The notes under the pieces were generated by a model. The model did no database searches. It was not told the origin of the DNA and saw only the letters and a list, made by a program, of their open reading frames with translations. From an uncultured Thermoplasmatales archaeon (GTDB lineage Archaea > Thermoplasmatota > SW-10-69-26), in NCBI GenBank assembly GCA_964581775.1, contig CAZOQA010000004.1:3786-67785 (forward strand): 64,000 nt of DNA. The letters are read 5' to 3'. A program made the position numbers and the translations under genes. Every line of letters starts with the position of its first letter. Positions within the stretch are counted from its first letter, which is position 1. Shown piece after piece: positions 2,491-25,158 of this stretch.

Positions 2491-2545
2491 GAACCTCTCG
2501 GCACCCCAACAGTTATGTAGAAGCACCATTTTGGTCGGGGTAGCT

Positions 2546-4228
2546 ATGCGCGGACAAGAAGGCCAACCGTTCATCGTCCTTGCTGAGGGCACAGACCGAA
2601 GCCAGGGCAAGAACGCCCAATCCAACAACATCCAAGCCGCCCGCGCCGTCGGGGACGCCGTGCGCTCCACGCTCGGCCCCCGCGGCATGGACAAGATGCT
2701 CGTCGACTCGATGGGCGACGTCGTCATCACGAACGACGGCGTCACCATCCTCAACGAGATCGACATCCAGCACCCCGCCGCCAAGATGATGGTCGAGGTC
2801 GCCAAAAGCCTCGACCAAGAGTGCGGGGACGGCACCACCAGCAGCGTCGTGCTCGCCAGCGAACTCCTGCACAAAAGCGAGGAGCTGCTCACCGACGTGC
2901 ACGCCACGCTGATCACGCGCGGGTACAACCTGGCCGCCGAGAAAGCCATCGAGATCCTCCAAGACCTCACCACGCAGGTCGACGTCGACGACGACGAGGT
3001 CCTCGAGAAGGTCGCCCGGACCAGCATGGCCTCCAAGCTCTCCGGCCAACACGTCGACACGCTGGCCCCCGTCGCCGTTCAGGCCATCCGCTCGGTCGCG
3101 CAACAAGACGGCGACACCTGGTGGATCGACACCGACGACATCGCCTTCTCCACCAAGACCGGCGGCAGCGTCGACGACACCGAAGTCATCGACGGCCTCC
3201 TGCTCGACAAGGACCGCGTGAACAGCGGCATGCCCGAGCGCGTCGACGACGCCCGCATCCTCCTGCTCAACAAAGCCATCGAGTTCGAGAAGACCGAGGT
3301 CGACAGCGAGATCCAGATCCAAGACCCCGACCAGCTGCAAGCGTTCCTCGACCAAGAGCAAGACGTGCTCGAGGAGATGGTCGACGCCATCGAGGCCTCC
3401 GGCGCGAACGTCGTCTTCTGCCAGAAGGGCATCGACGACGTCGCCCAGCACCTGCTGGCCCGCCGCGGCATCTTCGCCGTGCGCCGCGCCAAGAAGTCCG
3501 ACATGCAGCGCCTCGAGAAGGCCACCGGCGCCAACGTCCTCAACAGCCTCGACGACATCAGCGAGGACGACCTCGGCGAAGCCGGACGCGTCGAAGAGCG
3601 CATCATCGGCGACGACACCAGCACCTTCATCACCGGGTGCCCCGAAGCCGAAGCCGTCAGCATCCTCATCCGCGGCGGCACCGAGCACGTCGTCGACGAG
3701 GTCGAGCGCACCCTCGAGGACGCCATCGGCAGCGTCTCCGCCGCCGTCGAGCGCGGCTACGTCGTCCCCGGCGCGGGCTCCACCGAGACGGAGGTCGCGC
3801 TGCGCCTTCGCGAGTACGCGAACACGGTCGGCGGTCGCGAACAACTGGCCATCGAGGTCTTCGCCGACGCCATCGAAGTGATCCCCCGCACGCTCGCTGA
3901 GAACGCCGGCATGGACGCCATCCAAACCCTCGTGGACCTGCGAAGCGCCCACGAGAACGGCGACAAGACCACCGGCGTGCTCGTGGACACGGGCGAGATC
4001 ACGGACGCGCTCAAGGCCGGCGCCGTCGAGCCCCTGCGCGTCAAGGTCCAAAGCCTCAAGTCCGCCACGGAGGCCGCTACGATGGTGCTCCGCATCGACG
4101 ACGTCATCGCCAGCAAGGGCGCCTTCGACGAGGACGCAGGCCCCGACATGCCCGCCGGCGGACCCGGCGGCGGCATGGGCGGCATGGGTGGAATGGGCGG
4201 CATGGGCGGCGGCATGCCCCCCATGTAA
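2546..4228 (+). CDS. ths: thermosome subunit (group II chaperonin, Cpn60/TCP-1 family)
   Basis: Hallmark motifs are present: TLGPRGMDKMLVDSMGDVVITNDGVTIL, HPAAKMMVEVA, GDGTTSSVVLASELL, VVPGAGSTE and a GGMGGMGGMGGMGGGMPPM tail. The ATG is at 2546; the track ORF starts at TTG 2531. Confidence 0.95.
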   Translation: MRGQEGQPFIVLAEGTDRSQGKNAQSNNIQAARAVGDAVRSTLGPRGMDKMLVDSMGDVVITNDGVTILNEIDIQHPAAKMMVEVAKSLDQECGDGTTSSVVLASELLHKSEELLTDVHATLITRGYNLAAEKAIEILQDLTTQVDVDDDEVLEKVARTSMASKLSGQHVDTLAPVAVQAIRSVAQQDGDTWWIDTDDIAFSTKTGGSVDDTEVIDGLLLDKDRVNSGMPERVDDARILLLNKAIEFEKTEVDSEIQIQDPDQLQAFLDQEQDVLEEMVDAIEASGANVVFCQKGIDDVAQHLLARRGIFAVRRAKKSDMQRLEKATGANVLNSLDDISEDDLGEAGRVEERIIGDDTSTFITGCPEAEAVSILIRGGTEHVVDEVERTLEDAIGSVSAAVERGYVVPGAGSTETEVALRLREYANTVGGREQLAIEVFADAIEVIPRTLAENAGMDAIQTLVDLRSAHENGDKTTGVLVDTGEITDALKAGAVEPLRVKVQSLKSATEAATMVLRIDDVIASKGAFDEDAGPDMPAGGPGGGMGGMGGMGGMGGGMPPM

Positions 4229-4423: not shown

Positions 4424-6877
4424 CTAGTCCGGCGGCCAGCGGTAGACGTCCGAGATGTCCGTCTGCCCGGAGTCGCTGGTGGCTCGGAACTCGACGTCCA
4501 CGTCCTCGCCGACGTGCGTGTCTTTGGCCCAGGAACCCCAGTCGGTGCGCTCCAGCGCGAACCAGGACCCGCCGTCGACGCGCGCGTCCACGGCGACGAC
4601 CGGTTGGTTGGCTTCGACGTCCGTTTCCACCCACCACTCGTTGCCGCGTGGCTCGATGTACTCGGCGTCGAAGTCGCCGTCGCCGTCGTCTCCACCGTCG
4701 GACCCGTCGGGGCATGAGGTCTGGGAGGCGTGCGTCCACTCGTAGCAGGCCGACAGGGCTCGCGAGCCGTCGTCGGTGTGGGCTTGGAACTGCACGATGG
4801 AGCCCTCGGGCGCGTGGATGCTTTTGGCCCAGGAGCCCCAGTCTTGCTGTTCGAGCGCCGTCCAGGATCCGCCGTCGATGCGGGCGTCCACGCCGGTGAT
4901 GTGCCGCTCGCTCTGGACGTCGGTCTCGACCCACCATTCGTTGCCGCGTGGGTTCACGAAGTCCGCGTCGAACTCCCCGTCTCCGGTGTTGTCGCCGTCG
5001 CCGGGGCACTCGGTGGGGTTCGCGTCCGGCCATTCGTAACAGCCGGAGAGGGCCGTGTCTCCGTCGTGGTTGCGGGCTTGGAACTGCACGATGGACCCGT
5101 CGGGCACGTGGAAGCTTTTGGCCCAGGAGCCCCAGTCTTGCTCCTCGAGGGCTCGCCAGTCGCCGGCGTTGACGCGCGCGTGGACGCCTTGGAGCGGGTC
5201 GTTGGCGTTCACGTCGACCTCGACCCACCAGTCGTTGCCGCGGGGCTCGATGAACTCGGCGTCGAACTCGCCATCGTCGGGATCGTCGCCTCCGTCTCCG
5301 TCGTCGGGGGGTTGCGCGGCGGCGTCGTCCGCGTTGAGCATGTGGTTGTTGGGGTAGATGGGGTCCGCGTGGGAGGGGGTCGAGTAGATCTGCAGGGCGC
5401 CTTCTCTGCATCCGACGTCGCGTTCGGTCTCGCAGAAGTCGGCGTCGCGGTGCACGGGCAGGATCATCTCGAGCTGGTCGTCCCCGTCGAGGTCCACGAA
5501 GATGGGGCCTTTCGTGACGACCCACCCGTTGGGCGCGGAGACGAATCCCTTCTTCTCGCCCCAGGGGGTGTAGAGGCTGATGCCGTCGCCTTGGTCGACC
5601 TCGTTGGCGACGACCTCGATCTGCCCGTCGCCGGTGGCGTCGGTGACGGCCACGTTCTTGTTGGACCAGTAGTTGGGGAGCTCGGCTCGCCAGAGGAGGT
5701 TCCCGGTGTGGCCTTCCACGGCGAAGAGGTTGCTGGGGCCGGTGTGTTGCCAGTTGCCGGGTTTATGTCCGACCGTGTTCCAGTCTTGGAAGATCACGTC
5801 CAGATCCCCGTCCCCGTCGACGTCGAAGGGTACGGGGTGCATGTGCACGTGGGGGTTGCTCCAGGTCCACGTTTTGTGCCAGATCAGATCGCACCAGGCG
5901 TTCACGGCGAAGTAGTGGGCGTCCGAGTCGTCTTCCCATCCTTCGTATTGTTCTTCTTGCACGTTGCGGGCGCCGAACACGATCTCCAGGTTCCCGTCGT
6001 TGGTCACGTCCGCGAGGGTGGGGGAGACGCTGATGCTGGCGGGCCAGGTGCCGAAGTCGCGCGCGTTGAACGTGCACCGGTGCTGCATGCTGTCCCCTTC
6101 GTAGATGATGACTTGGCCACCGTCGCTGGGGTAGACGGCTTCGATGGAGCCGTCCCCGTCCAGGTCGCCAGCGAGCGGGCCTGCGTTCCCGTCCCCGTAG
6201 TCGGTCCAGGCTTCGACGTGCCCGTCGGGGTTGAGCTTGTAGTGGGAGGGTTGGTCGTCGAGTTGAGCGAAGACCTCGTCGCGCCCGTCGTTGTTCGTGT
6301 CCGCGAGGAACGCGGGCCCATCCATGCCGGGGTAGTCCCAGTCGCGGTTGGGGTCCTGCTCGTTGGGGTCGAGGAAGGTCTCCCAGGTGCGCACCATGTC
6401 GATCTTGCGGTGGTCGCTGGTGGGTTGGGCTTCGAACGCGGTCACCCAGCCGGCGCTGTTGGTGAGCACGATGTCTTTGAGGCCGTTGCCGCTGAGGTCC
6501 CCGATTGCGGGCCCTGCGAGCTCGCGGGCGTGCCACCCGTCGGGGTGGTTCGTGGTGAGCTCGGCGAGCAGATTCCCGTTGGTTCCGTCGAACACGTACG
6601 CGCGGTTGTTGTCGTTGTGCGTGACGATCTCTTTGACGCCGTCGCCGGTCAGGTCGACCGCTGCAAGCGTGACCGCGTCGAAGGCCTCGTAGGGCTTGTC
6701 GGGGTTGGTGTTGTGCAGCCCGATGCGGTGGTCTTGCTCGATGCCGTGATGCGAGGAGGCGCTGGCCTGCGTGGCCGCGAACGCTACGAGGAACAAGAAC
6801 GCAGCCACCGTGAGGGAGGCGATCAACCACCCTCGCCGTGCCTGGACGTCGGGCATGCTCATGAAGACGAACAGCAA
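4424..6877 (-). CDS. secreted FG-GAP/VCBS-type beta-propeller protein with three C-terminal tandem beta-sandwich (carbohydrate-binding-like) modules
   Basis: The N-terminal signal anchor is MLFVFMSMPDVQARRGWLIASLTVAAFLFLVAFAATQASA. There are eight Ca-binding-like loops: DLTGDGVKEIV, DLSGNGLKDIV, DTNNDGRDEVF, DLDGDGSIEAV, DVTNDGNLEIV, DVDGDGDLDVI, DATGDGQIEVV and DLDGDDQLEMI. The C-terminus carries three copies of GEFDAxFIxPRGNEWWVExDV...DWGSWAKS. Confidence 0.85.
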   Translation of the reverse strand: MLFVFMSMPDVQARRGWLIASLTVAAFLFLVAFAATQASASSHHGIEQDHRIGLHNTNPDKPYEAFDAVTLAAVDLTGDGVKEIVTHNDNNRAYVFDGTNGNLLAELTTNHPDGWHARELAGPAIGDLSGNGLKDIVLTNSAGWVTAFEAQPTSDHRKIDMVRTWETFLDPNEQDPNRDWDYPGMDGPAFLADTNNDGRDEVFAQLDDQPSHYKLNPDGHVEAWTDYGDGNAGPLAGDLDGDGSIEAVYPSDGGQVIIYEGDSMQHRCTFNARDFGTWPASISVSPTLADVTNDGNLEIVFGARNVQEEQYEGWEDDSDAHYFAVNAWCDLIWHKTWTWSNPHVHMHPVPFDVDGDGDLDVIFQDWNTVGHKPGNWQHTGPSNLFAVEGHTGNLLWRAELPNYWSNKNVAVTDATGDGQIEVVANEVDQGDGISLYTPWGEKKGFVSAPNGWVVTKGPIFVDLDGDDQLEMILPVHRDADFCETERDVGCREGALQIYSTPSHADPIYPNNHMLNADDAAAQPPDDGDGGDDPDDGEFDAEFIEPRGNDWWVEVDVNANDPLQGVHARVNAGDWRALEEQDWGSWAKSFHVPDGSIVQFQARNHDGDTALSGCYEWPDANPTECPGDGDNTGDGEFDADFVNPRGNEWWVETDVQSERHITGVDARIDGGSWTALEQQDWGSWAKSIHAPEGSIVQFQAHTDDGSRALSACYEWTHASQTSCPDGSDGGDDGDGDFDAEYIEPRGNEWWVETDVEANQPVVAVDARVDGGSWFALERTDWGSWAKDTHVGEDVDVEFRATSDSGQTDISDVYRWPPD
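4427..5272 (-). repeat. three in-frame tandem coding repeats (about 295 nt period)
   Basis: The units encode 98, 100 and 84 aa. DNA-level similarity is visible, for example ggcccaggaRcccca near 4530, 4825 and 5120. The units are separated by D/G-rich linkers. Confidence 0.85.
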
Positions 6878-15978: not shown

Positions 15979-16536
15979 CTAGACCGTGATCTCCTGCGGA
16001 GCCGCAAGCCCATCCTCGAAGACCTCGTAGTACTGCTGGAGGAAATGATGCAACGGTCGCCCCTTCTCCCAGCGCAGCACGAACCGCTCCGAATCCGTGC
16101 GCGGAAGCGCCGGCGTCCGTCGCGCCAACAGCCGCCCGCGACCTTCCAGATCCTCGTTCGGCACCGTGAACAAGCGCCAGGGATCCTTCTTGCGGTGCCC
16201 CTTCAACCGGAACGCGTACACCGCGAACACGCCCGCCTGGCGAGCCTCCTGCTGGATCTCCTCGGCCTGCTCCTGCAACGCGCCCGAGGACTCCGAGAAA
16301 TGCACCGTGTCCCGCCCGGCCGCCTTCACCTCGATGAGGAACGCGAACCCGTTGCGCATCGCGACCAGATCCCCCTTCCCGAGGGACCCGGCCGCTCGAA
16401 CGACCAGGAACGGTTCCCGGCCGGTCTGGCGGTACGCGTGCACGATCTCGTCGCTGCCCGTCCGGGTCATCTTCTCGAGGACGCCGGGGTCTCCGCTGAG
16501 GATGCCCCGGAGCTCTCGTTCGTAAGCGTGTCCCAT
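15979..16536 (-). CDS. hjc: archaeal Holliday junction resolvase (Hjc-type nuclease fold) with a C-terminal extension
   Basis: The pattern YERELRGIL...FLVVRAAGSLGKGDLVAMRNGFAFLIEVKAAG matches the E...D...E-x-K arrangement of Hjc. About 60 extra C-terminal residues are present. Confidence 0.65.
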   Translation of the reverse strand: MGHAYERELRGILSGDPGVLEKMTRTGSDEIVHAYRQTGREPFLVVRAAGSLGKGDLVAMRNGFAFLIEVKAAGRDTVHFSESSGALQEQAEEIQQEARQAGVFAVYAFRLKGHRKKDPWRLFTVPNEDLEGRGRLLARRTPALPRTDSERFVLRWEKGRPLHHFLQQYYEVFEDGLAAPQEITV

Positions 16537-16733
16537 CCCGCCCCCCGCACACGCCCCCGGGTCTTTGGGTGTATCGGTTCACGAGCGCGATCTCCGGCGC
16601 GCCACCTGGGCCCCACCCCCGAAGGCCCGCCTCCGGCCCCGACTCGGAATCGACAAACGCTTAAACCCGGGGCCCGCTGAGCGGGTTGGATGCACTTCCC
16701 CCGACCGTCGGGGCGCGTACTAGGAGGGACGAC

Positions 16734-17381
16734 ATGCCAATCGGTCAAAAACTCAAGTCGGGAAAGCCAGGCTTCCTAAGCTGGCTGAACTCCGTCTTCG
16801 GCAAGGAACAAGCCAAGATCGGGATCTATGGCCCCCCCAACGCGGGCAAGACCACGCTCGCGAACCGGATCGTCCGCGACTGGGCGGGCGATGTGATGGG
16901 CGCGGCCAGCGAGGTCCCGCACGAGACGCGCCGAGCTCGGCGCAAAGCGAACATCCAGATGAGCCAGAACGGCTCGGGCCTCACGTTGGACATCGTGGAC
17001 ACGCCCGGCATCGCCACGAAGATCGACTTCGAGGAGTTCGTGGAAGACCACGAGATGGAGGAGGGCGAGGCCAAGGACCGGGCCAAGGAGGCCACGGAGG
17101 GCGTCGTGGAAGCCATCCGATGGCTCGACGACGTCGACGGCATCATCCTCGTCATGGACGCGACCATGGACCCGTTCAACCAGGTCAACGTGACCATCCT
17201 GGGCAACCTGGAAGCTCGTCGACTCCCCGTGGTCATCGCCGCGAACAAGATCGACCTGCCCGAGTCCTCGCCGGCGACGCTCAAGAACGCGTTCCCGCAG
17301 CACCCCGTCGTGCCCATCAGCGCGATCACCGGGTACAACGTGGACCAGCTGTACGAGACCATGATCGAGAACTTCAGCTAG
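16734..17381 (+). CDS. small GTP-binding protein (Era/Arf-like P-loop GTPase, archaeal conserved)
   Basis: The G1 motif is GPPNAGKTT, G3 is DTPG and G4 is ANKID. An AGGAGGG SD lies 5 nt upstream of the ATG at 16734. Confidence 0.85.
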   Translation: MPIGQKLKSGKPGFLSWLNSVFGKEQAKIGIYGPPNAGKTTLANRIVRDWAGDVMGAASEVPHETRRARRKANIQMSQNGSGLTLDIVDTPGIATKIDFEEFVEDHEMEEGEAKDRAKEATEGVVEAIRWLDDVDGIILVMDATMDPFNQVNVTILGNLEARRLPVVIAANKIDLPESSPATLKNAFPQHPVVPISAITGYNVDQLYETMIENFS

Positions 17382-17392
17382 AGGTGGCTTCA

Positions 17393-17806
17393 TTGACGAG
17401 CAACGGCTCCGGCGGCGTCAAGATCAACCTCGTGTCGAAAGCCAAGCTGGACGATATGTCCCTCCAGGAGAAGATCCGGTTCATCCTCGACGAGGTCCAA
17501 CAGGACGTGATCCTCGTCCTCGAGGAAGGCTTGGATCCGAACGAGGAGGCCAAGCTGATCGAGTCCACCATGGTCGAGATCGATCCCGACAGCTTCACAG
17601 GGATCGAGATGGAAAGCCAACGCAACCCCGAGGCCTCGGGCATCATCGGGAAGCTGTTCCGACGCTCCCCCTACGGGGACCGGGCCAGCATGACCGTGGT
17701 CGGGCCAGCGGACAAGCTGCGCACCGTGTACAAGGACGGGGACAGCATCGAAGCCATGGTCCTCTCCGAGACCGCGGAAGCCGCCAGCGGCACCCCGGCG
17801 GTGTGA
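17393..17806 (+). CDS. DUF2073-like protein (partner of the archaeal GTPase)
   Basis: It starts immediately after the GTPase stop. The start is TTG 17393, preceded by a GAGGTG SD; GTG 17384 is the alternative. The sequence is VKINLVSKAKLDDMSLQEKIRFILDEVQQDVILVLEEGLDPNEEAKLIE. The family call comes from gene-order memory plus sequence character. Confidence 0.6.
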   Translation: MTSNGSGGVKINLVSKAKLDDMSLQEKIRFILDEVQQDVILVLEEGLDPNEEAKLIESTMVEIDPDSFTGIEMESQRNPEASGIIGKLFRRSPYGDRASMTVVGPADKLRTVYKDGDSIEAMVLSETAEAASGTPAV

Positions 17807-17809
17807 CGC

Positions 17810-18445
17810 GTGCCCCACCAGTGCCTCTCCTGCGGGGAAACCTTCGAAGACGGGTCCAGCGACCTCCTCGACGGGTGCCCCGGGTGCGAGGGCACGCAGT
17901 TCTTCTTCACCGAGGAACCCCTCGACCCCAACGAGCGGGAAGAGCTCCAAGAGGAAGCCGACCAGCGCAACGTGAACGAGATGCTCCAGGAGGTCCTCGA
18001 CGGGGCGGACAAGAGCGACCTCGACGAGGACCTGTTCAGCCGGGACGCCTGGGAGGACTGGATCCGTCTGCGCAAGGACGAGGACGGCGAGGTCCACCAG
18101 GAGGACGTCGCCTTCGAGACGCTCACGCCCGAAGAAGAGAAGACCGAGCTGCGCGCCTCGGAAGCCGTGCAAGTCAGCCTCGAGGACGTCCAGGAAGCCG
18201 ACGCCCCCGAGCCCGCCGCCGAACCCGCTCCGCCCGCGGACGAGCACGTGCCCGCCGGTGACGTCGAACCCATAGCCCCGGACGCCCAGGAAGCCGAGCC
18301 CGGTCGGCCCTCCACGTTGAACATCGAGAACCCGGGCAAGTACGAGATCGACGTGGAACGCTTGATGGAGGACAGCCCCGTCATCGTGGAACGCGACGGG
18401 TCCTTCGTGATCCACCTACCCAGCGTGTTCGAGCGAAGCAAGTAG
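17810..18445 (+). CDS. Zn-ribbon-containing protein (DUF2072-like) with a long acidic linker
   Basis: GTG start. The N-terminus is CLSCG...CPGCEG. It is followed by about 130 aa of E/D/P-rich low-complexity sequence and a small C-terminal domain. Confidence 0.65.
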   Translation: MPHQCLSCGETFEDGSSDLLDGCPGCEGTQFFFTEEPLDPNEREELQEEADQRNVNEMLQEVLDGADKSDLDEDLFSRDAWEDWIRLRKDEDGEVHQEDVAFETLTPEEEKTELRASEAVQVSLEDVQEADAPEPAAEPAPPADEHVPAGDVEPIAPDAQEAEPGRPSTLNIENPGKYEIDVERLMEDSPVIVERDGSFVIHLPSVFERSK

Positions 18446-18452
18446 GCCCGGG

Positions 18453-18671
18453 TCAGTACGTCGTCAACAGGATCGTATCCTCGTCCCCCACCGGTGTCTT
18501 GGCTCCCTCCAAGCGCTCCGCGTCGACGCCGTCGATGAACACGCGCGGGTCCGCCTGCTCAAGCCAAGGGACGCGCTCTTGGATCTTCTCAAGGGCCTCG
18601 CCCAGGGTGACCGCATCCACCTCGACGGTCCCCGGCTCGTCCAACCCGTTCCCGAGGACGATACGGACCAC
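18453..18671 (-). CDS. small beta-grasp (MoaD/ThiS-like) protein lacking a C-terminal Gly-Gly
   Basis: The product is 72 aa. MVRIVLGN...VTLGEALEKIQERVPWL...VFIDGVDAE...TPVGDEDTILLTTY has the layout of a MoaD/ThiS ubiquitin-like fold but ends in TTY. Confidence 0.5.
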   Translation of the reverse strand: MVRIVLGNGLDEPGTVEVDAVTLGEALEKIQERVPWLEQADPRVFIDGVDAERLEGAKTPVGDEDTILLTTY

Positions 18672-18716
18672 GCGGGGACAACCAGCGCGGAAGGAAAAAC
18701 CGTTGCGCCCGAAGGC

Positions 18717-20153
18717 TCAGTACGTGCTCTTGTGGGGCTCGATCTCGCGGGCCCACGCATCCACGCCGCCCTCGAGGTTGTACGCGCTCAAGCCGACCGA
18801 TCGGAGGAACTGCGTGGCTTTGGCGCTGCGGGCCCCGCTTTTGCAGTACGCGACGATGTCCTTGTCGGGAGGCAGCTCGCTGACGCGGTCTGGCAGATCG
18901 TCCAGCGGCACGTGCTCGCTGTCCTCGATGCGCACGATGTCCCGTTCCCAGCCCTCGCGCACGTCCAAGACCACAAGGTCCTCCCGTGCGCGTTCCTCGG
19001 CGAGCTCCTCGACCGTGATCTCTTGTCCGTCCATCTCGTCCTCCTGGTCCCGCAGCCCGCAGAACGCTTCGTAATCGATCAGCTCGGTGATCTCGGGGTC
19101 GTCCCCGCAGACGGGGCACTCGGGGTCCTTCTGGATGTCGACCTCGTCGAAGCTTGCCTCCCGAGCACTGTAGAGGATCAACCGACCGGTCAGAGGAGAG
19201 CCTTCCCCGAGCAGGATCTTGAGGGTCTCCGTGGCTTGGAGCACGCCCAGCGTGCCGGGAAGCACACCCAGGACGCCTCCTTCGGCGCAGCTGGGAACCA
19301 GGCCCGGGGGCGGGGGTTGCGGGTAAAGGCACCGGTAGCAGGGTCCCTGCTCGTTGGGCCAGAACACGCTGGCTTGTCCTTCGAAGCGGAAGATGCTTGC
19401 GTGCACGTTGGGCGTGTCCGTGATCACGCAGGCGTCGTTGGTGAGGTAGCGCGTGGGGAAGTTATCGGTCCCGTCCACGACCACGTCGTACTCGTCGACG
19501 AGGTCGAGCGCGTTCTCGCTGGTCAAGCGCGTGTCGTGGGCCTCGATGGTGACGTGGGGGTTCAGGCTCTCCAGGCGGCGCTTGGCCGCGTGGACCTTCT
19601 TGTCCCCTTCGTCTTCGTGCGCGTAGAGGATCTGCCGGTGGAGGTTGCTTGCGTTCACGATGTCTGGGTCCACGATGCCGATGCGGCCTACGCCTGCTGC
19701 GGCCAGGTAGAGGAGCGTGGGCGCGCCGAGGCCTCCGGCGCCGACGACGAGCGCGCTGGAGGCTTTGAGCCGTCGTTGTCCTTCCTGTCCGACGTCTGGG
19801 AGGATCAGGTGGCGTCCGTAGAACCGGAGCTCTTCCTGGTCGAGCTCGGGGAGGCCTTGGGCCCCGTTGGTGCCGCCGGGGGCTCCGCCGGCGACGGCGG
19901 GGAGCACGAGCACGGTGTCTGTGTCCCCTAGCTCGGTTTGGGGGCCGTCGAGTTCCTTGATGTTGGTCCCGTTGACGAAGAAGTTCACGAACCGTTGGAG
20001 CTCGTCTTCTTCGTCGAGGAGGTTCTCCCGGAGGTCCGGGTAGGTTTCGACGAGCTGGTGTACGGCTTCGTCGACGCGGTCTGCGGGCACGTCGATTTCG
20101 CTGTTGTCGTCGGCTTTGGGTCGAAGCGGGGCGGGGATCCGGACCTTCACCAT
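18717..20153 (-). CDS. fusion protein: MoaD/CysO-like Ubl domain (ending AVAGG), MoeB/ThiF-type E1 adenylyltransferase and rhodanese
   Basis: ATG at 20151-20153. Residues 1-90 are MVKVRIP...FVNGTNIKELDGPQTELGDTDTVLVLPAVAGG, with the GG codons at 19884-19889. The E1 part has ALVVGAGGLGAPTLLYLAAAGVG, SNLHRQ, DGTDNFPTRYLTNDA, CYRCLYP and CPVCG. The rhodanese part has AYCKSGARS. Confidence 0.85.
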   Translation of the reverse strand: MVKVRIPAPLRPKADDNSEIDVPADRVDEAVHQLVETYPDLRENLLDEEDELQRFVNFFVNGTNIKELDGPQTELGDTDTVLVLPAVAGGAPGGTNGAQGLPELDQEELRFYGRHLILPDVGQEGQRRLKASSALVVGAGGLGAPTLLYLAAAGVGRIGIVDPDIVNASNLHRQILYAHEDEGDKKVHAAKRRLESLNPHVTIEAHDTRLTSENALDLVDEYDVVVDGTDNFPTRYLTNDACVITDTPNVHASIFRFEGQASVFWPNEQGPCYRCLYPQPPPPGLVPSCAEGGVLGVLPGTLGVLQATETLKILLGEGSPLTGRLILYSAREASFDEVDIQKDPECPVCGDDPEITELIDYEAFCGLRDQEDEMDGQEITVEELAEERAREDLVVLDVREGWERDIVRIEDSEHVPLDDLPDRVSELPPDKDIVAYCKSGARSAKATQFLRSVGLSAYNLEGGVDAWAREIEPHKSTY

Positions 20154-20226
20154 CGCGGCTTGATGCACGCCTGCTCGGGGAAAAACGTTCCGCTCAAGGC
20201 AACAAGGGGTTGCCGAAGGTCTTGGC

Positions 20227-20640
20227 CTAGGCGTCGTGGCGTGCGTGGAGCGTGATGGGTTGGAAGCGTTGGCCGTCCCAGCGGCCGGCGTGGAAGGTCA
20301 GCGGGTCGAGGCTGAGGATGATGTACGCGGTATCGGGCCAGCTTGCGCGGGCGTGGTCCGTGGTGGAGAACCGGGCGGGGCCTTGGGGGTGGGAGTGGTA
20401 GAAGGCGACGATCTCGTGGGCGTCGTCTTGGGTGTCCGTGACGGCTTGGTGCAGGGCGTGGGGGTCGATCTCGTATTCGGTTCGGGGGTTCTCGTGCACG
20501 TTCTTAACGGGGTGGGCGTGGGCGGCTTTGCCGGCGTGGGGGCCGGTGAGGATGCCGCAGCATTCCAGGGGGGCTTCGTCGAGAGCGTGCTGCGTGATGG
20601 TCTCGACGACGGAGGGGTCAAGGTGGAGGGTCTTCGTCAT
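20227..20640 (-). CDS. JAMM/MPN+ metalloprotease (Mec/CysO-peptidase-like)
   Basis: Motifs are EAPLECCGIL, AFYHSHPQGPARFSTTD (H-S-H-x7-S-x2-D). Its ATG overlaps the cysM stop (ATGA at 20637-20640) and a GGGGGAG SD lies upstream. Only the last 137 codons of track ORF 20227..21945 are real. Confidence 0.85.
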   Translation of the reverse strand: MTKTLHLDPSVVETITQHALDEAPLECCGILTGPHAGKAAHAHPVKNVHENPRTEYEIDPHALHQAVTDTQDDAHEIVAFYHSHPQGPARFSTTDHARASWPDTAYIILSLDPLTFHAGRWDGQRFQPITLHARHDA

Positions 20641-21572
20641 GGGGTCTCCCCCGTGGCGTGGCGGACGTGCTCGGCGTAGAGCGTGGAGGCGTATCGGTCG
20701 AACCCGTCGGGGAGGATCGTCACGATGCGGCCTTCGCCGAGTTCGCGGGCGAGGGCTTGGCTCCCGGCGAGGGCGGCGCCGGCGCTGGGGCCCAGCGCGA
20801 GCCCTGCCTCGTCGACGAGGCGGACGCTGGCATCCCAGGCGTCGTGCGTGTCCACGGTGCGCTGGTCGTCGAGGAGGGAGGCATCCAAGACGCGGGGGGT
20901 CTTGTTCGTGTCCAGGTGCTTCCAGCCTTCCATCCCGTGGAGGGCGCGTGCGGGTTGGAGCCCGATGATGTCGACGTGGGGGGCGGCTTCGTCGAGGAAG
21001 CGGGCGGTGCCGGTGATGGTGCCGCCGGTCCCGATGCCGGCGACCAGGTGCGTGACGTGGGGGGCTTGGTCGAGGATCTCGGGACCGGTGGTCTCCTGGT
21101 GGGAGCGGGGGTTCTCGGGGTTGGAGTACTGGTCGACGTATTCGACGGCGTGGGGGTCTTGGTCGACGTGGGCTTGGCAGGCGTCGATGGCCCCGTCTTG
21201 GCCGTCTTCGCCGGGGGTGAGCGTGACGTCGGCGCCGTACAGGGAGAAGAGGTCCTTGCGCTCTTGGCTGGCGTTCTCGGGCATGAAAAGGTGCACGTCG
21301 AACCCGAACGCGCGCCCCATCAGGGCGTACGCGATGCCCGTGTTCCCGCTGGTGGCGTCCACGAGGGTGCGTCCTTTCTCCAGGCGGGGCCAGGCCTCGC
21401 GGGCGATGAACAGGGCGGGGCGGTCTTTGACGGAGCCCCCAGGGTTGGCGGCTTCGAGCTTCCCGTGGATGGCGACGCTCGGGTTGGGGGAGAGCGCGGA
21501 CAGGTCCACGAGGGGCGTATCGCCGACCAGGCCGGCCACGGGCGGGTCCGGGCCGGGGGGTCCATCGTCCAC
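20637..21572 (-). CDS. cysM: PLP-dependent cysteine synthase family enzyme (CysM/CysK-like)
   Basis: Motifs are TPLVDLS, KLEAANPGGSVKDRPA (PLP lysine), TSGNTGIAYA and GIGTGGTITG. GTG start at 21572. Confidence 0.85.
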   Translation of the reverse strand: MDDGPPGPDPPVAGLVGDTPLVDLSALSPNPSVAIHGKLEAANPGGSVKDRPALFIAREAWPRLEKGRTLVDATSGNTGIAYALMGRAFGFDVHLFMPENASQERKDLFSLYGADVTLTPGEDGQDGAIDACQAHVDQDPHAVEYVDQYSNPENPRSHQETTGPEILDQAPHVTHLVAGIGTGGTITGTARFLDEAAPHVDIIGLQPARALHGMEGWKHLDTNKTPRVLDASLLDDQRTVDTHDAWDASVRLVDEAGLALGPSAGAALAGSQALARELGEGRIVTILPDGFDRYASTLYAEHVRHATGETP

Positions 21573-21694
21573 GGTGCGTGGGAGAGGGGGCGGGTTGATG
21601 AGGGTTTGGTTCGCGGCGAGGCGGGGTCGCGCGTGGGACCCACCAGCCCTTGTTATGTAGTACCGTGGACGTACCGTACCGGCGGGTGAAGATC

Positions 21695-21991
21695 ATGCAC
21701 CCGACCCCCCGAACGCGCATCGTCCGAGACAGCCACGGAGACATCGTCGGCCTCTCCCAAGGGTTCCGCCCCGACCCCCTCACGGGACGCTTGGGCCTCC
21801 AGATTGAGCTCCTCCCCGACCCGGGAGACGCCATCGGCACCGGGGACCGGACCCTGCGAATCGACGACAGGAACCTCACCGCGCTCCGCCGGGACGAGAT
21901 CGTGATCGACCTCTCCCTCGACGAACTCAAACGCCTCGGACCCACCGGGCCCGCAGGACCTCCGAAGCGACAGCCCCCCCAACACGCCTAA
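21695..21991 (+). CDS. hypothetical small protein
   Basis: ATG at 21695. There is a strong C/G third-position bias in this frame. I recognised no family. An equally long antisense ORF also exists. Confidence 0.35.
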   Translation: MHPTPRTRIVRDSHGDIVGLSQGFRPDPLTGRLGLQIELLPDPGDAIGTGDRTLRIDDRNLTALRRDEIVIDLSLDELKRLGPTGPAGPPKRQPPQHA

Positions 21992-22090
21992 CACCGCTCA
22001 CCTGGGCCGCGGGACGCCCGGCGCGTCCCGCCCCTTGTTTCAACGACCTGACCACACGCTTCACGTACCCCCTCGCCACCCCCTCTCCTG

Positions 22091-23260
22091 ATGCACCTGC
22101 GCTGGTCCCTGCTCATCGCTCTCGCCGCCGCTCTCGCCCTCGCCGGATGCCTGGGCGCCACCGGCGACGACGGCGACGCGACACCCCCCGCGCACGAGGC
22201 CACCCCTGCGGAGGACCTCGATGCCTCCCCCTCCAGCCAGAACCTCACCCCCCTCGAGTTCTCTCTCGAGGAACCCTATCACGAGGTCCTCTGGGCCAAC
22301 GGATCCTACCAACCCCACGAATCCTGCAACACCGGCGGATGCGTCACCGGGGACGCCTACCGCCAGATCCCGCTCGACGGGCTCCCCGACCAAGCCCCCG
22401 TCCGCATCGACGCCACGCTCACCTACGACACCGGGACCGGGTCCCTCTTCGCGGGCCCCATGACCGTCACGCTCGGCGCAGAGGACGCCACCGTGTACGC
22501 CTACCAAGAATCAGACGACACGGGCAAGCACACCCTCCAAGCCACCCTGCTCACCGGGACCAGCTCGCCCGTCCTCGAGATCGCCTCCTGGTGGCCCAGC
22601 GGGAACCCCGACGGCACCTACTCCCTGAAAGCCACCCTCACAGCGGGCCCCGCCACCGTCCCCGCAGGCGTGCCCGTCGCCCTCGAACTCGAACCCGGTG
22701 ACACGCTCCACGCCGCCCCCGTGGAGGGCTCCGCCACCATCGACCTGCACGACGCCGAAGACACCCTCCTCGACCGGATCAGCCTCGACGACGACGCCCC
22801 GCCCCTCGAGATCCCCCAGCACGCCGAACCCGGCGAACACGTGCTCCGCCCCCACGGGGGAAGCATCGAGATCCGGGCCAACGCCACCGATTCCGACCTG
22901 CGCCCTCTGCCGATCACGCAAACGCTCGGCGACGCCCACGAGGCCCAAGCCGACCAGCCGCTTGAGTTCACGTTCGACGCGCCCAAGAACCTGATCAACG
23001 TCGGCGTCTACGCGACCGACCAAGGGGACCAGGGCGCCTCCGCGTCGCAAGGCACCGTCTCGATGGCGGGCCCGAACGGATCCATCGTCGAGCAAGAAGG
23101 CTTCGGCTGCACGATCTGCATCACGAACGGGTACGAGGCCATCCTCACGGGCTCTTCTTCCGATCCCAGCATCGTGCCCGGGACGTACGAGGTCGCGTAC
23201 GAGCCGGGCGCCGAGGAAGGCTACGCGATCGGGGGCCTCGTCGTCACGTACGAACGCTGA
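22091..23260 (+). CDS. acidic lipoprotein, unknown function
   Basis: MHLRWSLLIALAAALALAGC is a signal peptide plus lipobox. The remainder is D/E/T-rich and looks like beta-rich sequence. Confidence 0.7.
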   Translation: MHLRWSLLIALAAALALAGCLGATGDDGDATPPAHEATPAEDLDASPSSQNLTPLEFSLEEPYHEVLWANGSYQPHESCNTGGCVTGDAYRQIPLDGLPDQAPVRIDATLTYDTGTGSLFAGPMTVTLGAEDATVYAYQESDDTGKHTLQATLLTGTSSPVLEIASWWPSGNPDGTYSLKATLTAGPATVPAGVPVALELEPGDTLHAAPVEGSATIDLHDAEDTLLDRISLDDDAPPLEIPQHAEPGEHVLRPHGGSIEIRANATDSDLRPLPITQTLGDAHEAQADQPLEFTFDAPKNLINVGVYATDQGDQGASASQGTVSMAGPNGSIVEQEGFGCTICITNGYEAILTGSSSDPSIVPGTYEVAYEPGAEEGYAIGGLVVTYER

Positions 23261-23278: not shown

Positions 23279-24202
23279 TTACGCGTGCGCGGGGGCGTCG
23301 TTCGTGCCGAACACGGACCCGTGGCTGCTCTTCAACAGCTCCATGTACTCGTCGAGGTTCGGCCCGCGGCTTTTGAACCGGGCCAGGACCTCGTCCCAGT
23401 CCGGCTGATAAGCCACGTGCCAGCCCCCTCGCTCGTCCTCGTCCTCGTGCGCGTCGATCTCCAAGCCCAGGTCCTTGACGCGGGGGATGACCTGGTCGTA
23501 CCACTCGTACCGCATCTCGTCGTTCGTCATCGAGCGCAGCCCGTAGTCGATGATGTCCTGCACGTGCGTGGATTGCCGGTTCTCGGGCCCGAACCACTCC
23601 ACGCCGTGCGGCCACAAGCGATCGACCGCGTCTTGCAGCATCTGGCGCGTCGTCGCGGTCCCATTGGCCAGGCGCTTCATCCAAAGATCGCCGTGGCGCT
23701 GGTGAAACTTCTCCTCGATGTCGATCTTCTTCAATGCGCGCCGCCAGGGGCCGTACGAGCAGTGCTTGCTGATGTCGCCCAGTTGCACCGCGCCGGCCCG
23801 GTCGAAGAACGCGTTCGCGACGGCCAACTCGGCCCAGTTGTTCAACCGGTAGTCGAAGAAGTGCATGTTCTTGTACTCGTGCTTGTCGCGGCCGTACACG
23901 AGCTGGTCCTTGTCCTCGCCCAGGTCCTCCAAGAGCCGGTACATGATGTTCGCGTGCCCGGCCTCGTCCTGCACGACGGCGCTGGCGCTGATGCGCATAT
24001 CCAGCGTGGGCGCCGTGTTCGCCACGGGCTGGTAGCAGAGCACGCTCATCAGCTCCGTGTCGGCTTGCACGAGCATCAACCGCTTGAGCGCCTTCAGGTA
24101 CCCGGGGCTCATCTCTTCGATGCTCTCGATGGTCTCGCCCCGCGCGACGGCTTGTTTGACCTCGTCGTCGGTGCGCTGGGGTTCGGGGAGGTCCTCGGGC
24201 AT
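23279..24202 (-). CDS. paaA: ferritin-like diiron oxygenase subunit, PaaA (1,2-phenylacetyl-CoA epoxidase subunit A)-like
   Basis: The sequence contains LKALKRLMLVQADTELMS...VVQDEAGHANIMYRLLEDLG...EEKFHQRHG, with E-x-x-H type diiron motifs in PaaA-like spacing. Confidence 0.7.
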   Translation of the reverse strand: MPEDLPEPQRTDDEVKQAVARGETIESIEEMSPGYLKALKRLMLVQADTELMSVLCYQPVANTAPTLDMRISASAVVQDEAGHANIMYRLLEDLGEDKDQLVYGRDKHEYKNMHFFDYRLNNWAELAVANAFFDRAGAVQLGDISKHCSYGPWRRALKKIDIEEKFHQRHGDLWMKRLANGTATTRQMLQDAVDRLWPHGVEWFGPENRQSTHVQDIIDYGLRSMTNDEMRYEWYDQVIPRVKDLGLEIDAHEDEDERGGWHVAYQPDWDEVLARFKSRGPNLDEYMELLKSSHGSVFGTNDAPAHA

Positions 24203-24879: not shown

Positions 24880-25158
24880 ATGGGCAAGCGCCACCGGGTC
24901 CACTTCGTCCACGAAGACGTGACCCTCCACGTCGACGAGGACGACTACATCCTCGCCCAAGCCGAACAGGCCGGCCTGGATCTGCCCTACAGCTGCCGCA
25001 TGGGCACCTGCTCGGTTTGCGCCGCCCGCGTGGAAGGCGACGTGGACCAATCCGAGGGCATGATCCTCTCCGAGCAAGAAAAACAGGACGGGTACTGCCT
25101 GTTGTGCATCGCCAAGCCCCGCGGCGACGTCGACGTCGACACCGAAGACGTGCCCTGA
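24880..25158 (+). CDS. fdx: plant-type [2Fe-2S] ferredoxin
   Basis: The cysteine pattern is CRMGTCSVC...C, set in YSCRMGTCSVCAARVEGDVDQSEG...GYCLLCIAKP. Confidence 0.9.
   Translation: MGKRHRVHFVHEDVTLHVDEDDYILAQAEQAGLDLPYSCRMGTCSVCAARVEGDVDQSEGMILSEQEKQDGYCLLCIAKPRGDVDVDTEDVP

What the first reader, a model, noticed from the sequence alone, without database searches (positions are those of the whole stretch)
18453..21572. cysM-JAMM-(CysO-like Ubl::E1::rhodanese fusion) cluster: a sulfur-carrier pathway with the carrier fused to its own activating enzyme
The gene order on the minus strand is a cysteine synthase-family enzyme, a JAMM/MPN+ protease (ATGA-coupled), and then one ORF with three parts. 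The first 90 residues of that ORF are a MoaD/CysO-like beta-grasp ending LPAVAGG (GG codons at 19884-19889). A short APGGTNGAQG linker follows, then a MoeB/ThiF E1 domain and a rhodanese (CKSGARS). In Mycobacterium tuberculosis, cysM, cysO and mec(JAMM) form an operon, and a separate MoeZ (E1-rhodanese) thiocarboxylates CysO. Here the carrier's reactive Gly-Gly is buried inside the fusion. It must therefore be released, presumably by the adjacent JAMM protease, before it can be adenylated. JAMM trimming of residues after the GG is known for QbsE/QbsD. Cleavage of a Ubl from its own E1 would be an unusual self-priming arrangement. An alternative reading is a SAMP/UbaA-like protein-conjugation system.
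Basis: partly seen in the sequence, partly recalled or inferred. Interest (0 to 1): 0.75.

Follow-up and report, generated by a model that had tools for sequence, protein, structure and literature searches.

The report
Cysteine-synthesis operon with carrier fused to activator
This archaeal gene cluster encodes a cysteine-making pathway in which the small sulfur-carrier protein is made as one chain with the enzyme that activates it and probably has to be cut free by the neighbouring protease; the layout is real but common across many microbial phyla, so it is interesting to test rather than surprising.

Summary
On the minus strand lie a CysM-family PLP enzyme (20637-21572), a complete MPN+ JAMM protease (20227-20640, ATGA-coupled), and one ORF (18717-20153) made of a CysO-like beta-grasp, an E1 domain and a rhodanese domain, with Gly-Gly at 19884-19889.

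The fusion is not an artefact. The identical protein occurs in an independent assembly. All 119 aligned homologues share the architecture, with AGG invariant and a following linker of very variable length and sequence.

All 80 species-level genomes kept from a genome scan carry the fusion, across at least 14 phylum-level groups in bacteria and archaea. Of the 78 loci with enough upstream DNA, 74 have a JAMM gene directly upstream and 66 have cysM-JAMM-fusion. No stand-alone carrier was found nearby.

The best reading is the M. tuberculosis-type thiocarboxylate route to cysteine (CysO/MoeZ/CysM/Mec+), with JAMM first releasing the carrier from its E1. The cleavage is inferred, not shown.

The operon type was catalogued in 2006 and the Ubl-E1 fusion was noted in 2010. 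JAMM cleavage of linear MoaD-MoaE fusions has been demonstrated. This window is therefore a new member of a known kind that has not been tested biochemically. Interest is about 0.35.

The parts
20637..21572 (-). cysM-like PLP-dependent cysteine synthase family enzyme (311 aa)
   Evidence: Pfam PALP E 7.6e-66. NCBIfam cysM TIGR01138 scores 278 bits, below its equivalog cut-off of 394. PDB sequence hits are CysM/CysK enzymes, including M. tuberculosis CysM 3dwg_A at 161 bits. A homologue was found in the same upstream position in 66 of 78 informative loci and in 73 of 83 loci by ORF clustering.
20227..20640 (-). JAMM/MPN+ metalloprotease (137 aa), translationally coupled to cysM by an ATGA overlap
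   Evidence: Prok-JAB E 6e-20 and JAB E 5e-8. NCBIfam desampylase NF041370 scores 121 bits against a cut-off of 130. The motifs E26 and H-S-H-P-x7-S-x2-D are visible in the sequence. PDB sequence hits are 2kcq, 2kks and PfJAMM1 5lda. A JAMM gene is immediately upstream of the fusion in 74 of 78 loci.
18717..20153 (-). Fusion gene: CysO-like Ubl, linker, MoeB/MoeZ-type E1 and rhodanese (478 aa from ATG 20153; an alternative GTG at 20168 gives 483 aa)
   Evidence: Pfam ThiS + ThiF + Rhodanese. The identical 478-aa protein P0001 occurs in NCBI and in an independent Logan assembly. AlphaFold2 gives mean pLDDT 88.7. Foldseek finds Uba4 and ThiF/MoeB, the latter at TM 0.96-0.97.
19884..20153 (-). 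CysO-like beta-grasp carrier domain ending LPAVAGG
   Evidence: ThiS profile 1-76 of 76. NCBIfam SAMP1 61.8 bits (cut-off 60) and moaD_arch 50.1 bits (cut-off 49.5). Best PDB sequence hit is M. tuberculosis CysO 3dwg_C, E 4.6e-11, end to end. The model has beta-grasp secondary structure with pLDDT about 90.
19884..19889 (-). Gly-Gly codons: predicted JAMM cleavage site and future site of adenylation and thiocarboxylation
   Evidence: A88, G89 and G90 are invariant in all 119 fused homologues. The residue after GG was S, A, V, T, G, R, L or M in the 102 sequences the motif script parsed, mostly S or A.
19854..19883 (-). Linker APGGTNGAQG
   Evidence: pLDDT is below 50 for residues 88-99. In the 102 parsed homologues the distance from GG to the E1 RYxRH motif runs from 8 to 62 residues, with no sequence conservation.
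19110..19820 (-). E1 adenylation domain (GxGxxG, DGTDN, two CxxC zinc motifs, PSCAEGG cysteine)
   Evidence: Pfam ThiF E 1.1e-78. Invariant columns G138, G140, G141, D230, C272, C275, C289, C346 and C349. Foldseek matches ThiF/MoeB at about 1.3 A rmsd.
18747..19016 (-). Rhodanese domain with active-site Cys in CKSGARS (Cys codon 18843-18845)
   Evidence: Pfam Rhodanese E 1.9e-15. C437 and R442 are invariant.
18453..18671 (-). orf72: tail-less paralogue of the carrier domain (a beta-grasp with no PxxxGG tail, ending ...ILLTTY)
   Evidence: Weak Pfam ThiS hit, E 0.0027. Conserved in close relatives, always ending two residues after the last strand. AlphaFold2 pLDDT 88. Foldseek matches MoaD, SAMP1 and CysO folds at TMq 0.75-0.81. 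It is 28% identical to the fused Ubl domain, E 1e-6, with hhalign probability 94%.
20179..20189 (-). AACGTTTTTCC: putative archaeal TATA-like promoter element about 30 nt upstream of the fusion ATG
   Evidence: The pattern AACGNTTTTYC occurs only twice in 64 kb, against 0.05 expected. L003 has an A/T-rich box at the equivalent distance. A promoter function is inferred.
18694..18704 (-). AACGGTTTTTC: putative TATA-like element about 27 nt upstream of the orf72 GTG
   Evidence: L003 has the equivalent ACGTTTATGG about 30 nt upstream of its orf67. A promoter function is inferred.

Best explanation
The cluster encodes a protein-thiocarboxylate route to cysteine of the M. tuberculosis CysO/MoeZ/CysM/Mec+ type. 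Here the carrier (CysO-like Ubl) is translated as the N-terminal domain of its own activating enzyme (MoeZ-like E1 plus rhodanese).

Proposed sequence of events:
1. The JAMM protease hydrolyses the peptide bond after the invariant Gly-Gly. This releases a carrier of about 9.5 kDa with a free C-terminal glycine and an E1-rhodanese enzyme of about 42 kDa.
2. The E1 adenylates the carrier's glycine.
3. The persulfide on the rhodanese cysteine converts the acyl-adenylate to a thiocarboxylate.
4. The CysM-like PLP enzyme forms an aminoacrylate from O-phosphoserine or O-acetylserine. The thiocarboxylate attacks it, giving a carrier-cysteine adduct after S-to-N acyl shift.
5. The same JAMM hydrolyses the Gly-Cys amide, releasing cysteine and recycling the carrier.

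Both JAMM reactions cut an amide bond directly after Gly-Gly. The fusion therefore needs no extra enzyme, and it fixes carrier and E1 at a 1:1 ratio.

Shown here: domain identities, intact catalytic motifs, the invariant GG, the variable and disordered linker, and the conserved three-gene operon. Inferred: the cleavage itself, the acceptor substrate, and the sulfur source.
For: - Domain calls and motifs.
- The N-terminal domain matches M. tuberculosis CysO best among all solved structures, E 4.6e-11, end to end including LPAVAGG.
- AGG is invariant in 119 fused homologues, while the linker varies from 8 to 62 residues measured to the E1 RYxRH motif. The linker is predicted disordered, pLDDT below 50.
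- All 80 species-level genomes kept from the scan carry the full-length fusion. JAMM is immediately upstream in 74 of 78 informative loci, and cysM-JAMM-fusion in 66 of 78.
- Only these three genes are conserved around the fusion, and no second Ubl hit lies nearby.
- The same operon occurs in a Marinimicrobia genome and in the closest named relative, a Thermoplasmatales archaeon.
- Literature: the Mtb pathway, in which Mec+ hydrolyses CysO-Cys (PMC3227635). Capped carriers need a JAMM such as QbsD to expose GG (PMC6006322). DR0402 cleaves a MoaD-MoaE linear fusion to give a C-terminal Gly, and HvJAMM1 cleaves linear SAMP1 fusions (PMC8832034). JAB release of fused ThiS/MoaD was proposed in 2006 (PMC1779556).
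Against: - No experiment or proteomic datum shows cleavage of any Ubl-E1 fusion.
- The NCBIfam equivalog scores for cysM, MoeZ and desampylase are all below their cut-offs, so orthology to the characterised enzymes is not established at that level.
- PDB matches of the PALP enzyme are generic CysM/CysK enzymes, not specifically Mtb CysM. The acceptor (O-phosphoserine or O-acetylserine) is unknown.
- A few fused genes lack an adjacent JAMM: L001, L061, L063, L084.
- The model gives no reliable information on whether the Ubl docks in cis.
Confidence: 0.65

Rival explanations
1. The Ubl domain is never cleaved. It is a built-in docking or regulatory domain of the E1, and a separate stand-alone carrier encoded elsewhere is the true substrate.
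For: ThiF proteins with a fused N-terminal Ubl that co-occur with stand-alone ThiS are described in PMC1779556. Stand-alone CysO-like proteins of about 90 aa are numerous in the databases. A non-activatable Ubl (orf72) does exist in this cluster.
Against: AGG is invariant in all 119 fused proteins although the sequence after it is free to vary. A purely regulatory Ubl can lose the tail, as orf72 has. No stand-alone Ubl hit was found within several kb of the fusion in 80 genomes. No GG-terminated small ORF with a protein-like sequence exists in the 64-kb window. The tight JAMM linkage is otherwise explained only in part.
Confidence: 0.1
2. The module is mainly a protein-conjugation (SAMPylation-like) system. 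The released Ubl is attached to lysines of target proteins by the E1, and the JAMM is the deconjugating enzyme.
For: The N-terminal domain passes the NCBIfam SAMP1 model (61.8 bits, cut-off 60). The JAMM is closest to the haloarchaeal desampylase model (121 bits, cut-off 130). The E1 hits the UbaA model at 348 bits. The host is an archaeon, a domain in which E1-dependent Ubl conjugation is known (PMC2948915, PMC4443979).
Against: Across bacteria and archaea the conserved partner is a cysteine synthase (66 of 78 loci). The E1 carries a rhodanese domain and scores below the UbaA cut-off of 450. The carrier's closest characterised relative is CysO. A secondary conjugation role cannot be excluded.
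Confidence: 0.1
3. The fusion is cleaved, but by another protease or by itself. The adjacent JAMM serves only the Mec+-like step of releasing cysteine from the carrier-cysteine adduct.
For: The JAMM next to cysM is already explained by the Mec+ role in M. tuberculosis, where CysO is not fused (PMC3227635). Some fused genes lack an adjacent JAMM.
Against: JAMM enzymes of this clade cleave linear fusions directly after GG (PMC8832034, PMC6006322). The two reactions are chemically the same. No other protease is conserved in the neighbourhood.
Confidence: 0.1
4. The fusion is an artefact of a sequencing or assembly frameshift that joins a cysO gene to a moeZ gene.
For: None found.
Against: The identical 478-aa protein occurs in an independent Logan assembly. 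There are 119 homologous protein clusters and 80 species-level genomes with the same continuous reading frame. The intact frame was read directly.
Confidence: 0.01

Closest known systems
M. tuberculosis CysO / MoeZ(R) / CysM / Mec+ thiocarboxylate-dependent cysteine biosynthesis
   Same: It has the same four activities: a CysO-type beta-grasp carrier ending LPAVAGG, an E1 with a C-terminal rhodanese, a CysM-family PLP enzyme and a JAMM protease. Carrier, cysM and JAMM are clustered. The carrier domain's best solved-structure match is CysO itself.
   Different: Here the carrier is fused to the N-terminus of the E1, so GG is internal. In M. tuberculosis, CysO is a separate 93-aa protein and moeZ is unlinked. 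The gene order also differs. The host is a halophilic archaeon. Acceptor specificity (O-phosphoserine in Mtb) is unknown. NCBIfam equivalog cut-offs are not reached.
JAMM-processed linear Ubl fusions and capped carriers (D. radiodurans MoaD-MoaE/DR0402, H. volcanii SAMP1-MoaE/HvJAMM1, QbsE/QbsD)
   Same: A sulfur-carrier Ubl whose Gly-Gly is followed by more polypeptide, together with a cognate JAMM/MPN+ protease that exposes the C-terminal glycine (PMC8832034, PMC6006322).
   Different: The C-terminal partner here is the activating E1 itself, not the downstream sulfur-acceptor enzyme (MoaE) or a one- or two-residue cap. Cleavage has not been demonstrated for this architecture.
Operon type 4c of Iyer, Burroughs and Aravind 2006 (ThiS/MoaD, E1-rhodanese, JAB, cysteine synthase), and the 'Ubl-E1-TBP' fusion noted by Makarova and Koonin 2010
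   Same: It has the same gene set. It occurs in some of the same groups named in those papers: Salinibacter, Solibacter-type Acidobacteria, the Rubrobacter lineage, Chloroflexi, and Thaumarchaeota for the fusion.
   Different: Those papers catalogue the association and propose in general terms that JAB frees fused Ubls. The text available here does not single out the Ubl-E1-rhodanese fusion within operon 4c or quantify it. The halophilic Thermoplasmatota members carry an extra tail-less Ubl gene.
Eukaryotic Uba4/MOCS3-Urm1 and haloarchaeal UbaA-SAMP systems
   Same: E1 (with rhodanese in Uba4/MOCS3) acting on a MoaD/ThiS-like Ubl. The full model's best structural match is Uba4.
   Different: In those systems the Ubl is a separate protein and no cysteine synthase is involved. 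UbaA lacks the rhodanese domain.

Membership tests
CysO/MoeZ/CysM/Mec+ thiocarboxylate-dependent cysteine pathway | CysO-type beta-grasp sulfur carrier with a Gly-Gly that becomes the C-terminus | tested here: met
   Full-length Pfam ThiS match. Best PDB sequence hit is Mtb CysO 3dwg_C, E 4.6e-11, aligned to the terminal LPAVAGG. Beta-grasp in the model. GG is internal as encoded, so it needs processing.
CysO/MoeZ/CysM/Mec+ thiocarboxylate-dependent cysteine pathway | MoeZ-type E1 with a C-terminal rhodanese domain and its catalytic residues | tested here: met
   ThiF plus Rhodanese. Invariant GxGxxG, DGTDN, CxxC twice, PSCAEGG Cys and rhodanese Cys. The NCBIfam MoeZ model scores 444 bits against an equivalog cut-off of 647, so the architecture and motifs are met but equivalog-level orthology is not.
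CysO/MoeZ/CysM/Mec+ thiocarboxylate-dependent cysteine pathway | CysM-type PLP enzyme that accepts the carrier thiocarboxylate and O-phosphoserine | tested here: inconclusive
   It is a PALP-fold cysteine-synthase family member. The cysM model scores 278 bits against a cut-off of 394. It is no closer to Mtb CysM than to E. coli CysM. Substrate use cannot be tested with these tools.
CysO/MoeZ/CysM/Mec+ thiocarboxylate-dependent cysteine pathway | JAMM/MPN+ hydrolase (Mec+) with an intact zinc site, clustered with cysM and the carrier | tested here: met
   Prok-JAB hit and the E...HSHP-x7-S-x2-D motif. ATGA coupling to cysM. The cluster is conserved in 66 of 78 loci.
CysO/MoeZ/CysM/Mec+ thiocarboxylate-dependent cysteine pathway | Formation of the carrier thiocarboxylate and carrier-dependent cysteine synthesis | not testable with these tools
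   Needs biochemistry.
JAMM-processed linear Ubl fusions / capped sulfur carriers | Ubl Gly-Gly followed by further residues in the same polypeptide | tested here: met
   GG at residues 89-90 of 478, followed by the linker and the E1. This holds in all 119 homologues.
JAMM-processed linear Ubl fusions / capped sulfur carriers | A cognate JAMM encoded with the capped carrier | tested here: met
   JAMM is adjacent here and in 74 of 78 informative loci.
JAMM-processed linear Ubl fusions / capped sulfur carriers | Demonstrated cleavage after Gly-Gly | not testable with these tools
   No paper testing a Ubl-E1 fusion was found in six literature searches.
Archaeal SAMP/UbaA/HvJAMM1 sampylation system | UbaA-type E1 (about 270 aa, no rhodanese) at equivalog level | tested here: not met
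   The UbaA model NF047750 scores 348 bits against a cut-off of 450, and a rhodanese domain is present.
Archaeal SAMP/UbaA/HvJAMM1 sampylation system | SAMP-type Ubl and a desampylase | tested here: inconclusive
   The SAMP1 model scores 61.8 bits, just above its cut-off of 60. The desampylase model scores 121 bits, just below its cut-off of 130.
Archaeal SAMP/UbaA/HvJAMM1 sampylation system | Isopeptide-linked Ubl-protein conjugates | not testable with these tools
   Needs proteomics.

The most novel reading that the evidence does not exclude
In this halophilic Thermoplasmatota lineage the module may be a regulated, zymogen-like switch. JAMM cleavage of the CysO::E1 fusion would be the controlled activation step. 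The lineage-specific tail-less Ubl paralogue (orf72), apparently with its own promoter, would act as a non-activatable decoy. It would compete for the Ubl-binding surfaces of the E1, JAMM or CysM, either to tune flux or to divert the released carrier between sulfur transfer and protein modification.
Probability: 0.1. Interest if true: 0.6.

Novelty: new member of a known kind. Interest (0 to 1): 0.35.

Why it matters
The survey suggests that the fused CysO::MoeZ form, always paired with a JAMM, is a standard way to build the thiocarboxylate route to cysteine in Acidobacteriota, Gemmatimonadota, ammonia-oxidising archaea, Salinibacter and halophilic Thermoplasmatota. This route has been characterised mainly in mycobacteria.

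The fusion is a clean natural test case for an idea that has never been tested on an E1 fusion: that prokaryotic JAMM proteases prime Ubl carriers as well as recycle them. The same enzyme would first free the carrier from its activator and then release the product in each cycle.

For genome annotation, these genes are currently labelled 'MoeB' or 'SAMP1'. They would be better described as a carrier-E1 fusion of a cysteine biosynthesis operon.

Tried and rejected
- **Frameshift or assembly artefact:** rejected.
- **Separate GG-terminated carrier in the window:** I scanned all six frames for ORFs ending GG plus 0-6 residues. The only real protein among the matches was a 578-aa thermosome-like ORF, and no small carrier-like ORF was found.
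- **Stand-alone Ubl near the fusion:** tblastn with the Ubl domain against 80 loci found none. Sensitivity is limited to relatives detectable at E 1e-3.
- **orf72 as the real substrate:** rejected. It lacks the whole PxxxGG tail in all five homologues.
- **Read-through of the orf72 stop:** considered because a VGG lies 13 codons downstream. Rejected because the stop position is conserved in the homologues and that region belongs to the convergent gene.
- **Rfam scan of 18300-22100:** only a sub-threshold miRNA hit, which is noise.
- **Placing the PALP enzyme with Mtb CysM by PDB sequence ranking:** uninformative.
- **Burroughs et al. 2009 (E1-like superfamily):** not held in the library. Figures of PMC1779556 are not held either, so I could not see whether the fusion is drawn there.

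Full report
**1. The observation**

ORF listing and direct reading of the minus strand show four consecutive genes:
- A 311-aa ORF at 20637-21572.
- A 137-aa ORF at 20227-20640. Its ATG overlaps the preceding TGA as ATGA.
- A long ORF at 18717-20168. The ATG at 20153 is the likely start, giving 478 aa.
- A 72-aa ORF at 18453-18671.

Pfam assigns PALP to the first (E 7.6e-66) and Prok-JAB/JAB to the second (E 6e-20). The third gets ThiS (residues 9-95, the full profile 1-76), ThiF (117-353, E 1e-78) and Rhodanese (385-474, E 2e-15). The fourth gets a weak ThiS hit (E 0.0027).

The linker APGGTNGAQG follows, and the rhodanese carries CKSGARS. The JAMM has the complete E...HSHP-x7-S-x2-D motif.

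Base composition (66-70% G+C), the acidic proteins and the closest named relative (Thermoplasmatales archaeon SW_10_69_26; fusion 69% identical, full synteny) point to a halophilic Thermoplasmatota archaeon.

**2. The fusion is real and conserved**

- The identical 478-aa protein exists in NCBI and in an independent Logan read assembly. That assembly also has the JAMM upstream and the 72-aa gene downstream.
- The best 120 protein clusters returned by the homology search all carry ThiS+ThiF+Rhodanese, apart from one 408-aa entry (P0017) without a ThiS call. They come from Thermoplasmatota, Nitrososphaerales, Acidobacteriota, Marinimicrobia, Elusimicrobia, Salinibacter and other groups.
- In an alignment of 119 of them, A88-G89-G90 are invariant.
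- In the 102 sequences that the motif script parsed, the stretch between GG and the E1 N-terminal helix varies from almost nothing to more than 50 residues, with no sequence conservation. The residue after GG is mostly S or A.
- AlphaFold2 with this alignment gives a confident model (mean pLDDT 88.7). Residues 1-87 have beta-grasp secondary structure at pLDDT about 90, and residues 88-99 are disordered (pLDDT below 50).
- Foldseek matches the whole model to Uba4. It matches the E1 core to ThiF/MoeB at TM 0.96-0.97.
- By sequence, the N-terminal domain's best match among all solved structures is M. tuberculosis CysO (3dwg_C, E 4.6e-11). The alignment runs end to end and shares the terminal LPAVAGG.

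**3. Genomic context elsewhere**

A scan of one genome per species returned at least 598 relatives. The best 80 were kept, and all of them encode the full-length fusion. They span:
- Acidobacteriota (many orders), Gemmatimonadota, Nitrososphaerales and Thermoplasmata
- Cyanobacteriota, Chloroflexota, Bacteroidota, and Salinibacter/Salinivenus
- Armatimonadota, Elusimicrobia and Rubrobacteraceae
- Kryptoniota, Eisenbacteria and Proteobacteria (Moritella sp. PE36)

I ran tblastn with the window's proteins against these loci. Of the 78 loci with enough upstream DNA:

| Upstream, same strand | Loci |
|---|---|
| CysM and JAMM | 66 |
| JAMM only | 8 |
| CysM only | 1 |
| Neither | 3 |

Clustering all ORFs around the fusion in 83 loci shows that only three genes are conserved: the fusion (83), the JAMM (77) and CysM (73). 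An Rrf2 regulator and a cysteine desulfurase lie downstream in a minority (15 and 13 loci). No second Ubl hit lies near the fusion in any locus.

The three-gene operon cysM-JAMM-(cysO::moeZ) is therefore a widespread unit that crosses both prokaryotic domains.

**4. Mechanism**

Established knowledge from M. tuberculosis (PMC3227635):
- MoeZR adenylates and thiocarboxylates CysO.
- CysM adds O-phosphoserine-derived aminoacrylate to the CysO thiocarboxylate.
- Mec+ (a JAMM) hydrolyses the CysO-cysteine adduct.

Carriers whose GG is capped need a JAMM such as QbsD to expose it (PMC6006322). JAMM enzymes also cleave linear fusions after the Ubl: DR0402 cleaves MoaD-MoaE, and HvJAMM1 cleaves SAMP1 fusions (PMC8832034).

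In the present architecture the GG cannot be adenylated until the bond after it is cut. Four observations point to JAMM as the enzyme that releases the carrier:
- the invariant GG
- the free-to-vary, disordered linker
- the near-obligate JAMM neighbour
- the absence of any other carrier nearby

The priming cut (Gly-Ala here) and the recycling cut (Gly-Cys) are the same kind of reaction. One JAMM therefore suffices, which probably explains why the fusion is tolerated so widely. The fusion also fixes carrier and E1 at a 1:1 ratio.

The cleavage, the acceptor substrate and the sulfur donor are inferences. I put the whole scheme at about 0.65.

**5. Rivals**

- **An uncleaved, purely regulatory Ubl with a carrier elsewhere (0.1).** The invariant GG argues against this. 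So does orf72, which shows that a non-activated Ubl can lose its tail.
- **A SAMPylation-like conjugation role (0.1 as the main function).** The SAMP1 and desampylase model scores sit close to their cut-offs, which hints at this. The universal cysteine-synthase partner, the rhodanese domain and the closest match being CysO favour sulfur transfer. A secondary conjugation role is not excluded.
- **Cleavage by another protease (0.1).** This cannot be excluded for the few loci without an adjacent JAMM.
- **Artefact.** Refuted.

**6. The fourth gene**

orf72 is conserved in the close relatives (59-67% identity). In every homologue it ends two residues after the last beta-strand.

Its model (pLDDT 88) matches MoaD, SAMP1 and CysO folds at TMq 0.75-0.81. 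It is a detectable paralogue of the fused carrier domain (28% identity, E 1e-6; hhalign probability 94%).

It lacks the PxxxGG tail, so it cannot be activated. Its role is unknown; a decoy or adaptor is a speculation. It was found only in the halophilic Thermoplasmatota relatives.

**7. Comparison with what is known, and novelty**

[quoted passage not shown] Their examples are Solibacter, Salinibacter, Rubrobacter, Chloroflexus, P. aeruginosa and R. palustris. They also suggest that JAB may cleave off ThiS or MoaD fused to other proteins to generate a free C-terminus.
- Makarova and Koonin (2010, PMC2948915) mention a Ubl-E1 fusion in Thaumarchaeota that is shared with bacteria.
- Public annotation already labels these proteins 'MoeB', 'adenylyltransferase/sulfurtransferase' or 'SAMP1'.
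- I found no paper that tests cleavage of a Ubl-E1 fusion.

The window therefore holds a new member of a catalogued, widespread kind that has not been tested biochemically. It is not an unusual arrangement. A specialist would not be surprised, but the self-priming step is an experiment worth doing. Interest 0.35.

**8. Side observations**

- The pattern AACGNTTTTYC occurs only twice in the window (0.05 expected). One copy lies 27 nt upstream of the orf72 start and the other 31 nt upstream of the fusion start. The Thermoplasmatales relative has A/T-rich boxes at the same distances. This fits archaeal TATA boxes with leaderless or short-leader transcripts, and it suggests the cluster is not a single transcription unit here.
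- The exhaustive search with the carrier domain found 3134 representative proteins at E 0.001 or better, and 285 at 1e-10 or better. Besides stand-alone CysO-like proteins of about 90 aa, it turned up other architectures with an internal GG: tandem di-Ubls, a permuted Ubl-rhodanese-E1, and Ubl fused to other domains. These fit a general JAMM-release logic.

Noticed in passing
window 18453-18671 (-): A 72-aa gene directly downstream of the fusion encodes a beta-grasp paralogue of the carrier domain. It lacks the whole PxxxGG tail and ends ...ILLTTY. It is conserved only in close halophilic Thermoplasmatota relatives, and its function is unknown.
   Followed up: yes
window 18694-18704 and 20179-20189 (-): AACG(N)TTTTYC occurs only twice in 64 kb (0.05 expected). 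One copy lies 27 nt upstream of the orf72 start and the other 31 nt upstream of the fusion start. L003 has A/T-rich boxes at equivalent distances (4966-4979 and 6491-6500). These are probably archaeal TATA-like promoters, which would mean separate transcription of the fusion gene and orf72.
   Followed up: partly
proteins P0127, P0243, P0181, P0166, P0186: Other architectures built on CysO-like domains with an internal Gly-Gly. P0127 and P0243 are tandem di-Ubls, each repeat ending in GG. P0181 is a permuted Ubl-rhodanese-E1. P0166 has a Ubl followed by a domain I did not scan, which looks NIL-like by eye. P0186 has a Ubl fused to an uncharacterised domain of about 280 aa.
   Followed up: no
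L049 7843-8301, L080 8078-9298 and about a dozen other loci: In 13-15 of 83 loci an Rrf2-family regulator and an IscS/NifS-type cysteine desulfurase lie just downstream of the fusion; in Luteitalea (L001) they lie about 2.5 kb downstream. The desulfurase is a plausible sulfur donor for the rhodanese domain.
   Followed up: no
L001 (Luteitalea sp. TBR-22), L061, L063, L084: The fusion gene occurs without an adjacent JAMM or cysM. Whether these genomes encode the JAMM elsewhere could not be checked.
   Followed up: no
PDB 2kcq_A: The best solved-structure sequence match of the window's JAMM is an uncharacterised 'Mov34/MPN/PAD-1 family' NMR structure. If I recall correctly it comes from Salinibacter ruber, a species that carries the same operon type. 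I did not verify its source.
   Followed up: no
window 2492-4228 (+): A 578-aa ORF ends in a GGMGGMGGM... repeat, which is typical of archaeal thermosome subunits and fits an archaeal host. I saw it only in the ORF scan.
   Followed up: no
window 16686-18445 (+) and 15979-16536 (-): The flanking genes match the Thermoplasmatales relative L003 in type and order: a GTPase, OapB-like and OapC-like proteins, then an Hjc resolvase. On the other side lie a PaaA/PaaC-like protein (23279-24202) and a 2Fe-2S ferredoxin (24880-25158). The synteny suggests the cluster is a stable chromosomal feature of this lineage.
   Followed up: partly
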